Assembly: GCF_003018255.1 (NCBI RefSeq)
Contig: NZ_CP027440.1
Length of the DNA: 64,000 bases
DNA from: Escherichia coli
GTDB taxonomy: Bacteria; Pseudomonadota; Gammaproteobacteria; Enterobacterales; Enterobacteriaceae
Direction: 5' to 3' (one strand)
This document shows, in pieces, positions 1,077 to 59,412 of this stretch. Within the stretch, counting starts at the first letter, position 1. Each line of letters starts with the position of its first letter. The notes beneath the pieces are model-generated. The model saw only the letters and a list, made by a program, of their open reading frames with translations. It had not been told where the DNA came from and did not search any database. The translations under genes were made by a program, and so were the position numbers.

Positions 1077-3434
<2,358 letters not shown>

Positions 3435-3438
3435 TTAG

Positions 3439-3690
<252 letters not shown>

Positions 3691-44825: not shown

Positions 44826-44942
44826 AAAAAAAAGCGGATCCTGGAGATCCGCAAAAGTTCACGTTGGCTTTAGTTATTCGAGTTGAGAAACTCTCGAAAC
44901 GGGCAGTGACTTCAAGGGTTAAAAGAGGTGCCGCTCCGTTTC
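44826..44942 (-). ncRNA. oxyS: OxyS small regulatory RNA
   Basis: Reverse complement reads GAAACGGAGCGGCACCTCTTTTAACCCTTGAAGTCA...GCGGATCTCCAGGATCCGCTTTTTTTT, matching recalled OxyS with its 3' terminator hairpin; divergent from oxyR. Confidence 0.85.
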
Positions 44943-49819: not shown

Positions 49820-49949
49820 GATGTATCCTGAAAAATTAAAGTACGCGGCGATTGTAGGGATTGCTCATCAGATGTCCAGATCTTGATGAATTCCTATTTG
49901 TGAGCTACGTCTGGACAGTAACTTGTTACAACCTGTAGCATCCACTTGC

Positions 49950-50160
49950 CGGTCCTGTGAGTTAATAGGGAATCCAGTGCGAATCTGGAGCTGACGCGCA
50001 GCGGTAAGGAAAGGTGCGATGATTGCGTTATGCGGACACTGCCATCCGGTGGGAAGTCATCATCTCTTAGTATCTTAGATACCCCTCCAAGCCCGAAGAC
50101 CTGCCGGCTAACGTCGCATCTGGTTCTCATCATCGCGTAATATTGATGAAACCTGCGGCA
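49950..50160 (+). ncRNA. Cobalamin (AdoCbl) riboswitch in the btuB 5' leader
   Basis: Long untranslated leader containing a B12-box-like element (ccaagcccgaagacctgccgg, ~50088-50107); boundaries approximate. Confidence 0.7.
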
Positions 50161-53245: not shown

Positions 53246-54787
<1,542 letters not shown>

Positions 54788-54948: not shown

Positions 54949-55132
54949 CTTGCTGGTTTGTGAGTGAAAGTCACCTGCCTTAGTATCTCAAAACTCATCT
55001 TCGGGTGATGTTTGAGATATTTGCTCTTTAAAAATCTGGATCAAGCTGAAAATTGAAACACTGAACAACGAAAGTTGTTCGTGAGTCTCTCAAATTTTCG
55101 CAACTCTGAAGTGAAACATCTTCGGGTTGTGA

Positions 55133-58036
<2,904 letters not shown>

Positions 58037-58129
58037 ACAACGCCGAAGATGTTTTGGCGGATGAGAGAAGATTTTCAGCCTGATACAGATTAAATTAACC
58101 GGCGACAAGCGGGTTAATAAAACAGAATT

Positions 58130-58249
58130 TGCCTGGCGGCCGTAGCGCGGTGGCCCCACCTGACCCCATGCCGAACTCAGAAGTGAAACGCCGTAGCGCC
58201 GATGGTAGTGTGGGGTCTCCCCATGCGAGAGTAGGGAACTGCCAGGCAT
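58130..58249 (+). rRNA. rrfB: 5S ribosomal RNA
   Basis: TGCCTGGCGGCCGTAGCGCGGTGGCCCCACCTGACCCCATGCCGAACTCAG...GGGAACTGCCAGGCAT; 120 nt. Confidence 0.95.
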
Positions 58250-58261
58250 CAAATTAAGCAG

Positions 58262-58296
58262 AAGGCCCAGTCGGAAGACTGGGCCTTTTTGCGTTT
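58262..58296 (+). terminator. rRNA operon Rho-independent terminator (single copy)
   Basis: Hairpin ggcccagtc-ggaa-gactgggcc followed by ttttt, immediately after the 5S gene. Confidence 0.75.
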
Positions 58297-58383
58297 CTAC
58301 AAACTCTTCCTGTCATCATATCTACAAGCCATCCCCCCGCAGATACGGTAAACTAGCCTCGTTTTTGCATCAGGAAAGCAGCT

Positions 58384-59412
58384 ATGAACCACTCCTTAAA
58401 ACCCTGGAACACATTTGGCATTGATCATAATGCTCAGCACATTGTATGTGCCGAAGACGAACAACAACTACTCAATGCCTGGCAGCATGCAACCGCAAAA
58501 GGACAATCCGTTCTTATTCTGGGTGAAGGAAGTAATGTACTTTTTCTGGAAGACTATCGCGGTACGGTGATCATCAACCGGATCAAAGGTATCGAAATTC
58601 ATGATGAACCTGATGCGTGGTATTTACATGTAGGAGCCGGAGAAAACTGGCATCGCCTGGTAAAATACACTTTGCAGGAAGGTATGCCTGGTCTGGAAAA
58701 TCTGGCATTAATTCCTGGTTGTATCGGCTCATCACCTATCCAGAATATTGGTGCTTATGGCGTAGAATTACAGCGAGTTTGCGCTTATGTTGATTGTGTT
58801 GAACTGGCGACAGGCAAGCAAGTACGCTTAACTGCCAAAGAGTGCCGTTTTGGCTATCGAGACAGTATTTTTAAACATGAATACCAGGATCGCTTCGCCA
58901 TTGTAGCCGTAGGTCTGCGTCTGCCAAAAGAGTGGCAACCTGTACTGACGTATGGTGACTTAACTCGCCTGGATCCTTCAACGGTAACGCCACAGCAAGT
59001 ATTTGATGCGGTGTGTCATATGCGCACCACCAAACTCCCTGATCCAAAAGTGAACGGTAATGCGGGTAGTTTCTTCAAAAATCCTGTTGTTTCTGCCGAA
59101 ACTGCTAACGCGTTGTTGGCACAATTTCCAACAGCCCCACATTACCCCCAGGTGGATGGTTCAGTAAAACTGGCTGCAGGTTGGCTTATTGATCAGTGCC
59201 AGCTTAAAGGGACGCAAATTGGTGGGGCTGCGGTACACCGTCAACAGGCGCTGGTTCTCATAAATGAGCACGATGCAAAAAGCGAAGATGTTGTACAGCT
59301 GGCGCATCATGTAAGACAAAAAGTGGGTGAAAAATTTAATGTCTGGCTTGAGCCTGAAGTCCGCTTTATTGGTGCATCAGGTGAAGTGAGCGCAGTGGAG
59401 ACAATTTCATGA
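58384..59412 (+). CDS. murB: UDP-N-acetylenolpyruvoylglucosamine reductase
   Basis: 342-aa [36 protein letters not shown]... Confidence 0.95.

What the first reader, a model, noticed from the sequence alone, without database searches (positions are those of the whole stretch)
58037..58300. rRNA operon 3' end carries one terminator instead of the K-12 T1-T2 pair, plus a variant 23S-5S spacer
From memory, K-12 rrnB has 5S followed by T1, about 170 bp of spacer, then T2, with the motif aactgccaggcatcaaat occurring both at the 5S 3' end and just before T2. Here that motif at the end of 5S runs straight into taagcagaaggcccagtcggaagactgggcctttttgcgtttctac, i.e. a single T2-context terminator, consistent with deletion (or absence of duplication) between the direct repeats. 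The 23S-5S spacer (ttaaccggcgacaagcgggttaataaaacag) and two 5S positions also differ from the rrnB sequence I recall.
Basis: partly seen in the sequence, partly recalled or inferred. Interest (0 to 1): 0.3.

Follow-up and report, generated by a model that had tools for sequence, protein, structure and literature searches.

The report
Ordinary single-terminator end of E. coli rrnB
This E. coli rRNA operon (rrnB) ends in one ordinary terminator hairpin because it lacks a 168-bp cassette (terminator T1 plus the small-RNA gene rrB) that K-12 carries there; about half of sequenced E. coli and most related bacteria lack it too, so K-12 is the unusual one.

Summary
The window holds the rrnB locus. 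After the 5S gene (58130-58249) there is one terminator hairpin (58264-58285 plus a U-tract), 134 nt before murB. K-12 has T1, a 168-bp unit and T2 there (300 nt).

The flanks match K-12 T2, but the hairpin is GGCCCAGTC-GGAA-GACTGGGCC. That is 1 nt from the K-12 rrnA T1 stem-loop and unlike the T2 stem-loop. A simple deletion between the 18-bp repeats of a K-12-like allele cannot produce it.

The missing block is the published tRNA-linked-repeat cassette that encodes the sRNA RrB (PMC8144298). Among 5,426 complete E. coli genomes:
- 2,513 (46%) have the K-12 arrangement upstream of murB; the rest do not.
- About 27% have no RrA/B/F copy anywhere.

All sampled non-coli Escherichia, and 44 of 47 Enterobacteriaceae loci, have a single terminator here.

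The variant 23S-5S spacer is a compensated allele of a conserved hairpin. 5S C12 is the common inter-operon allele. 5S C25 is a rare single-base variant.

Verdict: a real but ordinary, widespread allele. Interest is low.

The parts
55133..58036 (+). 23S rRNA gene of the rrnB operon
   Evidence: Rfam LSU_rRNA_bacteria, 2870 bits, full length
58037..58129 (+). 23S-5S spacer (5' part of the 9S pre-5S RNA). It differs from K-12 rrnB at 58050 (A vs C) and in the hairpin.
   Evidence: Alignment with K-12; comparison with all seven K-12 operons
58094..58118 (+). Variant spacer hairpin AUUAACC-G-GC-GACAA-GC-G-GGUUAAU, just 5' of the conserved AUAAAACAGAAUUUG that leads into 5S
   Evidence: Folds at -11.6 kcal/mol vs -11.1 for the K-12 hairpin, with the same shape. 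Across 15 alleles and species 97.7% of cells are paired, 8 of 9 pairs show compensatory changes, 0/500 shuffles reach this, and slid controls give 20-45%.
58130..58249 (+). 5S rRNA gene (rrfB), with C at position 12 (58141) and C at position 25 (58154)
   Evidence: Rfam 5S_rRNA, 92.1 bits. C12 is found in 4 of 8 K-12 5S genes. C25 is found in one 5S copy of only 6 of 5,426 genomes, and all 34 outgroup 5S copies have T. Both positions are unpaired in the Rfam consensus.
58237..58254 (+). Single copy of the 18-bp motif AACTGCCAGGCATCAAAT. In K-12 the 168-bp T1-rrB-repeat cassette follows immediately after 58254.
   Evidence: The same clean presence/absence junction is seen at rrnD between K-12 and JNE23-011.
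58250..58263 (+). A/U-rich single-stranded linker CAAAUUAAGCAGAA between the 5S 3' end and the hairpin. It is the expected site of the 3' RNase E cut of pre-5S RNA (inferred from K-12 9S RNA biology).
   Evidence: Identical to the K-12 T2 left flank. The processing role is inferred from established knowledge and was not tested.
58264..58298 (+). The operon's only intrinsic terminator: stem GGCCCAGUC (58264-58272), loop GGAA (58273-58276), stem GACUGGGCC (58277-58285), U5 (58286-58290), then GCGUUUCU
   Evidence: Folds at -26.8 kcal/mol, z = -6.3; K-12 T1 gives -32.7 and T2 -22.7. The 47-mer or a near variant is in 2,298 E. coli genomes, exact in 1,074. The identical hairpin occurs at the orthologous locus in Citrobacter amalonaticus L023 and Kosakonia L085.
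58299..58383 (+). murB leader and upstream region, nearly identical to K-12 and conserved across Enterobacteriaceae
58384..59412 (+). murB, the first gene downstream of the terminator
   Evidence: ORF list; annotated as murB in matching genomes

Best explanation
The window carries the cassette-free allele of the rrnB 3' end.

How it works: transcription of the operon stops at one resident Rho-independent terminator, a 9-bp G+C-rich stem with a GGAA loop and a U5 tract, 15 nt after 5S and about 95 nt before murB. As in K-12, this hairpin also forms the 3' end of the pre-5S (9S) RNA, and the A/U-rich linker before it is where RNase E is expected to cut.

What K-12 has extra: a discrete 168-bp tRNA-linked-repeat cassette (T1 hairpin, the sRNA gene rrB, and a second copy of the 18-bp 5S-end motif) sitting between 5S and the resident terminator, which in K-12 is called T2. 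The window has never had this cassette, or at least does not derive from the K-12 allele by deleting it.

Why it looks chimeric: the T2-type flanks belong to the locus. The stem-loop is one of two hairpin cores, CAGUC-GNAA-GACUG and AUCC-NNNN-GGAU, that recur as rrn terminators throughout Enterobacteriaceae.

The other differences: the spacer hairpin and 5S C12 are likewise ordinary alleles that are shuffled among operons and strains.

Shown: the anatomy, the population frequencies, the outgroup states and the covariation. Inferred: termination at this hairpin, RNase E processing, and the direction of change (cassette gained in the K-12 lineage).
For: - Anatomy and contrast with K-12.
- Hairpin stability.
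- The missing block is the rrB/TLR cassette (PMC8144298). No RrB 20-mer is present anywhere in the window.
- Frequencies in 5,426 complete genomes: K-12-type arrangement at murB in 2,513; this hairpin in T2 flanks in 2,298; RrB core anywhere in 3,946.
- Reference strains CFT073, 042 and O157:H7 all have 133-134 nt single-terminator alleles with the same core.
- Outgroups: Escherichia sp. E1V33, E. whittamii, E. albertii and strain E69 all have one terminator. Of 47 Enterobacteriaceae loci with the 5S end visible, 44 have one 5S-end motif, at a median 138 nt from murB. E. whittamii and E. albertii carry CAGTC/CGGTC-type cores in T2-type right flanks.
- In JNE23-011, which is 100% identical to the window over 5.7 kb, rrnA, rrnD and rrnE are also cassette-free. 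At rrnD the K-12 and JNE23-011 sequences differ by a clean cassette indel with an identical resident terminator.
Against: - Termination at this hairpin was not measured.
- The simple consensus scan did not flag it. This is probably because the stem can extend into the A/U flanks and so uses up part of the T run.
- The direction of change is a parsimony inference. The cassette is old in Enterobacterales (31 species, PMC8144298) and sits at this very locus in Kluyvera L042, Enterobacter L050 and Raoultella L073. Ancient polymorphism with repeated loss therefore cannot be excluded.
- The genome counts come from megablast summaries, not per-genome parsing. A few RrB matches are on cloning-vector plasmids (39 places).
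Confidence: 0.85

Rival explanations
1. Recent deletion. A K-12-like T1-rrB-T2 ancestor lost 168 bp by recombination or replication slippage between the two 18-bp AACTGCCAGGCATCAAAT repeats.
For: The direct repeats exist in K-12 rrnA, rrnB and rrnD, 168 nt apart. Strain A34 has a single terminator at murB that is 99.5% identical to the K-12 T2-to-murB segment, which is what such a deletion would leave.
Against: That deletion leaves the K-12 T2 stem-loop GGCCATCC-TGAC-GGATGGCC. The window's stem-loop is a different, longer hairpin. Every non-coli Escherichia and most Enterobacteriaceae are single at this locus. The window's lineage has no cassette at rrnA, rrnB or rrnD.
Confidence: 0.07
2. T1/T2 chimera. 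Gene conversion or a double crossover within a dual-terminator allele, or from another operon, put the T1 stem-loop into the T2 site, and the cassette was then lost.
For: The 22-nt hairpin differs from K-12 rrnA T1 at one base only (C vs T, which turns a G-U pair into G-C), while both flanks are identical to T2. rrn operons clearly exchange segments: in JNE23-011 three of the four operons examined (rrnB, rrnA, rrnE) carry three different spacer hairpins and three different terminators, and the CFT073-type spacer is homogenised to a median 6 copies per genome.
Against: It needs two exchanges within 10 nt or less of homology, plus a loss. The identical hairpin is the sole resident terminator at this locus in Citrobacter amalonaticus and Kosakonia, and related cores are found in E. 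albertii and E. whittamii, all with no cassette present.
Confidence: 0.07
3. Assembly or sequencing artefact: repeat collapse between the 18-bp repeats, or errors in a multi-copy region.
For: rrn operons are repeats that assemblers handle badly. The 5S C25 base is absent from the two otherwise identical genomes.
Against: The same 134-nt arrangement is in roughly 2,900 complete genomes, including CFT073, 042 and O157:H7, and in other species. At most, the single C25 base could be an error.
Confidence: 0.01

Closest known systems
E. coli K-12 rrnB 3' end: T1 - rrB (RrB sRNA, tRNA-linked repeat) - T2 (Stenum et al. 2021, PMC8144298)
   Same: Same locus and neighbours. The 5S end and 18-bp motif are identical, the 9-nt left flank and the right flank of T2 are identical, and the murB leader is nearly identical.
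   Different: The window lacks the 168-bp cassette (T1 tail, rrB, second repeat). Its one hairpin has a T1-like core rather than the T2 core.
K-12 rrnA T1 hairpin (GGCTCAGTC-GGAA-GACTGGGCC)
   Same: 21 of 22 hairpin bases are identical, including the GGAA loop.
   Different: T1 has long complementary A/U-rich flanks (AAAACGAAA / UUUCGUUUU; -32.7 kcal/mol) and is followed by rrA. The window hairpin has T2-type flanks with a U5-GCG tail and is followed by the murB leader.
Single resident rrn terminators, such as K-12 rrnG, JNE23-011 rrnA/rrnD/rrnE, and CFT073, 042 and O157:H7 rrnB
   Same: One hairpin 10-15 nt after 5S, then a U-tract. CFT073, 042 and O157:H7 share the same core with 1-4 substitutions.
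   Different: Most of the others use the AUCC-NNNN-GGAU core. The exact 47-mer of the window is in 1,074 genomes.
Hairpin of the 23S-5S spacer just upstream of 5S in the 9S precursor
   Same: Same position, stem length, internal mismatch and energy as the K-12 hairpin. It is followed by the invariant ACAGAAUUUG.
   Different: The sequence differs at about 12 of 23 positions, with compensatory pairs. This form is in 279 genomes, and a near variant (CFT073 type) is in 516.

Membership tests
Rho-independent (intrinsic) terminator | Stable G+C-rich stem-loop | tested here: met
   9-bp perfect stem (7 G-C pairs) with a GGAA loop; -26.8 kcal/mol; z = -6.3
Rho-independent (intrinsic) terminator | U-rich tract immediately 3' of the stem | tested here: met
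   UUUUU at 58286-58290, then GCGUUUCU. The consensus scan nevertheless listed no site.
Rho-independent (intrinsic) terminator | RNA 3' ends map to the U-tract in vivo or in vitro | not testable with these tools
   Needs Term-seq, 3' RACE or in vitro transcription
K-12-type dual terminator / TLR cassette encoding RrA/B/F sRNA | Second copy of the 18-bp 5S 3'-end motif about 150 nt downstream | tested here: not met
   One copy only (58237-58254); K-12 rrnA, rrnB and rrnD have two
K-12-type dual terminator / TLR cassette encoding RrA/B/F sRNA | RrB core sequence between two terminators | tested here: not met
   No 20-mer of the 116-nt RrB core occurs anywhere in the 64-kb window; alignment gap of 166 nt
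5S rRNA (Rfam RF00001) | Score above the gathering threshold, with full-length structure | tested here: met
   92.1 bits against a threshold of 38, model positions 1-120
Conserved pre-5S spacer hairpin | Hairpin at a fixed position upstream of 5S, maintained by compensatory changes | tested here: met
   97.7% of cells paired; 8 of 9 pairs with double changes; 0/500 shuffles; slid controls 20-45%
Conserved pre-5S spacer hairpin | Role in RNase E processing of 9S RNA | not testable with these tools
   Inferred from K-12 9S RNA biochemistry (own knowledge); no assay here

The most novel reading that the evidence does not exclude
The RrA/B/F sRNA genes are an accessory, movable cassette rather than a fixed part of E. 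coli rRNA operons. About 27% of complete E. coli genomes have no copy at all. These include the window's near-identical strain at all four operons checked, and apparently CFT073/Nissle-type B2 strains. Such lineages are natural knock-outs. They rely on one hairpin alone to stop antiterminated rRNA transcription about 95 nt before the essential murB gene. This would argue that the sRNA's proposed link between growth rate and CsrA is dispensable or lineage-specific. I found no paper reporting this within-species absence.
Probability: 0.6. Interest if true: 0.3.

Novelty: already known. Interest (0 to 1): 0.15.

Why it matters
For the window itself it matters little. This is the common natural allele of a textbook locus, present in thousands of public genomes. 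The apparent anomaly arises from treating K-12 as the norm.

There are two modest points of wider use.
1. The widely used 'rrnB T1T2' arrangement, and the RrB sRNA inside it, are not universal in E. coli. The arrangement is at murB in 46% of genomes, and the sRNA is absent from every locus in about 27%. This bears on how essential the proposed RrA/B/F-CsrA/Hfq function can be.
2. A single hairpin evidently suffices to insulate murB-birA from the most heavily transcribed operon class in many lineages.

Tried and rejected
- **Terminator and promoter scan of 57900-58500.** It flagged nothing, although the hairpin plus U5 is plain in the sequence. I treated this as a limit of the scanner and relied on folding.
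- **Rfam search of the K-12 T1-T2 block.** There is no family for RrB, only a sub-threshold RtT hit (17 bits against a threshold of 45). Membership therefore had to be tested by sequence.
- **Linking the variant spacer to the murB-side terminator with a 236-nt query.** Local alignments trimmed the variant part (starting at query position 13-19), so identity bands did not separate the classes. The row pattern still gave about 52% single-piece (single terminator) against about 45% two-piece or other-operon, which agrees.
- **First 40-mer count of the variant spacer (279 genomes).** This missed the CFT073 subtype, because two flank SNPs leave no 28-nt seed. I recounted and found 516 more.
- **Literature searches for 23S-5S spacer diversity in E. 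coli.** These returned nothing usable. One search failed on a term that was too short.
- **Source of the variant spacer hairpin.** It was not found in the 20 outgroup loci where the spacer was visible, so its origin is unresolved.
- **Coordinate guesses for rrnA and rrnD in JNE23-011.** The first tries missed; two searches found them.
- **Rejected explanations.** Simple deletion between the repeats, a recent T1/T2 chimera, and an assembly artefact (see the rival explanations).

Full report
**1. What is in the window**

The region is the 3' end of the rrnB operon of an E. coli strain. Upstream to downstream the order is: the btuB cobalamin riboswitch, btuB, murI, 16S (53246-54787), tRNA-Glu, 23S (55133-58036), 5S (58130-58249), murB (58384-59412), birA, coaA, thrU-tyrU-glyT-thrT and tufB. 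The 5.7 kb from the 5S end onward is 100% identical to strains JNE23-011 and JNE112863. It is 99.8% identical to CFT073 and Nissle 1917.

**2. Checking the observation**

Alignment with K-12 MG1655 rrnB confirms every factual point.
- The window has 134 nt between 5S and murB; K-12 has 300.
- The 18-bp motif AACTGCCAGGCATCAAAT occurs once here and twice in K-12, 168 nt apart.
- The spacer hairpin differs from K-12.
- The 5S gene differs from rrfB at positions 12 (A to C) and 25 (T to C).

The flanks of the remaining hairpin (TAAGCAGAA ... TTTTTGCGTTTCTAC) are identical to the K-12 T2 context. The stem-loop, GGCCCAGTC-GGAA-GACTGGGCC, is not the T2 stem-loop (GGCCATCC-TGAC-GGATGGCC). It differs by one base from the T1 stem-loop of K-12 rrnA.

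**3. What the missing block is**

Stenum et al. 2021 (PMC8144298) showed that the sequence between T1 and T2 of K-12 rrnA, rrnB and rrnD is a tRNA-linked repeat. It encodes the short-lived sRNAs RrA, RrB and RrF. These are made by read-through of T1, bind Hfq and CsrA in vitro, and give only modest phenotypes when deleted. So the window lacks a discrete cassette: T1, rrB and the second 18-bp repeat. No 20-mer of the RrB core occurs anywhere in the 64 kb. Rfam has no family for this RNA.

**4. How common each state is**

Counts are among 5,426 complete E. coli genomes.

| Feature | Genomes |
|---|---|
| K-12 arrangement (5S end-T1-rrB-T2-murB) | 2,513 (46%) |
| Window's hairpin in T2 flanks, or a near variant (1-3 copies per genome) | 2,298 |
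| Window's hairpin in T2 flanks, exact | 1,074 |
| RrB core anywhere | 3,946 |

About 27% of genomes therefore have no RrA/B/F gene at all. A few of the RrB matches are vector plasmids. The row pattern independently gives about 52% single-terminator genomes at murB.

CFT073, 042 and O157:H7 all have 133-134-nt single-terminator alleles with the same core and a few substitutions. One of these is an A-to-G change that keeps a G-U pair. From my own knowledge, these strains belong to phylogroups B2, D and E, and K-12 to phylogroup A.

In JNE23-011, rrnA, rrnD and rrnE are also cassette-free. At rrnD, K-12 and JNE23-011 share an identical resident terminator and differ only by the cassette. This shows that the cassette is a clean insertion or deletion unit sitting next to a terminator that belongs to the locus.

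**5. Direction of change**

I scanned one genome per species for MurB relatives and read the sequence upstream of murB.
- Of 47 loci where the 5S end is on the contig, 44 have one 5S-end motif, at a median 138 nt from murB.
- Three have a dual arrangement: Kluyvera L042, Enterobacter L050 and Raoultella L073.
- Every non-coli Escherichia sampled is single: sp. E1V33, E. whittamii, E. albertii and strain E69.
- Both hairpin cores occur as the sole terminator at this locus. The window's exact hairpin plus TTTTTGCG is found in Citrobacter amalonaticus (L023) and Kosakonia oryzendophytica (L085).

The most economical reading is that a single resident terminator is ancestral at this locus in Escherichia, and that the K-12 lineage carries an added cassette. 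The cassette itself is old in Enterobacterales (PMC8144298). Long-standing polymorphism with repeated loss therefore cannot be excluded.

A simple deletion from a K-12-like allele is excluded for the window by the hairpin sequence. Strain A34 shows what such an allele looks like.

**6. How it most likely works**

The hairpin folds at -26.8 kcal/mol. That lies between K-12 T2 (-22.7) and T1 (-32.7). It is followed directly by U5 and a further U-rich stretch, which is the standard anatomy of an intrinsic terminator.

By analogy with K-12 9S RNA (established knowledge, not tested here), the hairpin also closes the 3' end of the pre-5S RNA. RNase E is expected to cut in the preceding A/U-rich linker (58250-58263).

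**7. The spacer**

The variant hairpin (58094-58118) has the same shape and energy as the K-12 hairpin: -11.6 against -11.1 kcal/mol. I compared 15 spacer alleles from E. coli and other genera.
- 97.7% of cells are paired.
- 8 of 9 pairs show compensatory double changes.
- No shuffle out of 500 reaches this level.
- Slid-register controls give 20-45% paired.

It is therefore a compensated allele of a conserved structure. The window's form is in 279 genomes. A near variant (CFT073 type) is in 516 genomes, at a median of six operon copies. JNE23-011 carries three different spacer hairpins in rrnB, rrnA and rrnE. This fits exchange among operons and strains. The ultimate source of this allele was not found.

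**8. The 5S differences**

C12 is the allele of four of the eight K-12 5S genes. C25 is rare. It occurs in one 5S copy in only 6 of 5,426 genomes, and none of these is an exact match to the window. It is absent from the otherwise identical JNE23-011, and all 34 outgroup 5S copies have T. Both positions are unpaired in the Rfam consensus. C25 is either a private mutation or a base-calling error.

**9. Verdict**

The feature is real and correctly described, but it is the ordinary, widespread form of this locus. K-12 carries the extra element.

The only mildly new point is that the published RrA/B/F sRNA cassette is variable within E. coli and absent from about a quarter of complete genomes. I found no paper that states this.

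Noticed in passing
window 58154: 5S rRNA position 25 is C. All eight K-12 5S genes, the otherwise identical strain JNE23-011 and 34 outgroup 5S copies have T. Only 6 of 5,426 E. coli genomes have C25, in one copy each. It lies in an internal loop that is unpaired in the Rfam consensus. It is either a private mutation or a sequencing error.
   Followed up: partly
L098 6690-7100, L099 6450-6850, L101 5560-6130 (JNE23-011 rrnA, rrnE, rrnD): Within this one genome, rrnB, rrnA and rrnE carry three different 23S-5S spacer hairpins (rrnD shares the rrnA type) and three different single terminators. None of rrnA, rrnB, rrnD or rrnE carries the RrA/B/F cassette.
   Followed up: yes
L099 (JNE23-011, downstream of the rrnE 5S): yjaA, which follows rrnE in K-12, is absent; yjaB follows the 5S gene directly. 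Because yjaA is a phylogroup marker, the window's lineage may not be classic B2 despite 99.8% identity to CFT073 and Nissle over murB-tufB.
   Followed up: no
L014 1-421 (Escherichia sp. MOD1-EC7003, upstream of murB): About 290 extra bases lie between the rrn terminator and the murB leader. They include an ORF start that reads like a transposase N-terminus, so this is possibly an IS fragment inserted at this locus.
   Followed up: no
window 58320-58383, and all loci L009-L088 just upstream of murB: A block (ACAAGCC ... ATACGGTAAACTA ... TTTTTGCATCAGGAAAGC) is conserved upstream of murB across Enterobacteriaceae. It is presumably the murB promoter or leader, although the consensus promoter scan found nothing there.
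   Followed up: no
window 44833-44942 (-), 3419-3471 (+), 49933-50122 (+), 55026-55125 (+): Other Rfam matches in the window: OxyS sRNA, the L31 ribosomal-protein leader, the btuB cobalamin riboswitch, and StyR-44 just upstream of 23S. All are expected for this chromosomal region.
   Followed up: no
E. coli genome collection (rows H222, H230; row H70): The K-12 rrnB T1-rrB-T2 sequence also appears on small plasmids and laboratory constructs (39 places). These are most likely cloning-vector terminators, and they slightly inflate the counts of genomes 'with RrB'.
   Followed up: no
L092, L093, L094, L098 (E. coli) and L011, L042, L059, L083, L088 (other species): A third, longer 23S-5S spacer hairpin type (TCGACAGGTCATAACGNGACGTGTTGA) occurs in some E. 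coli operons. It resembles the spacers of several other Enterobacteriaceae more than it resembles the K-12 type.
   Followed up: partly
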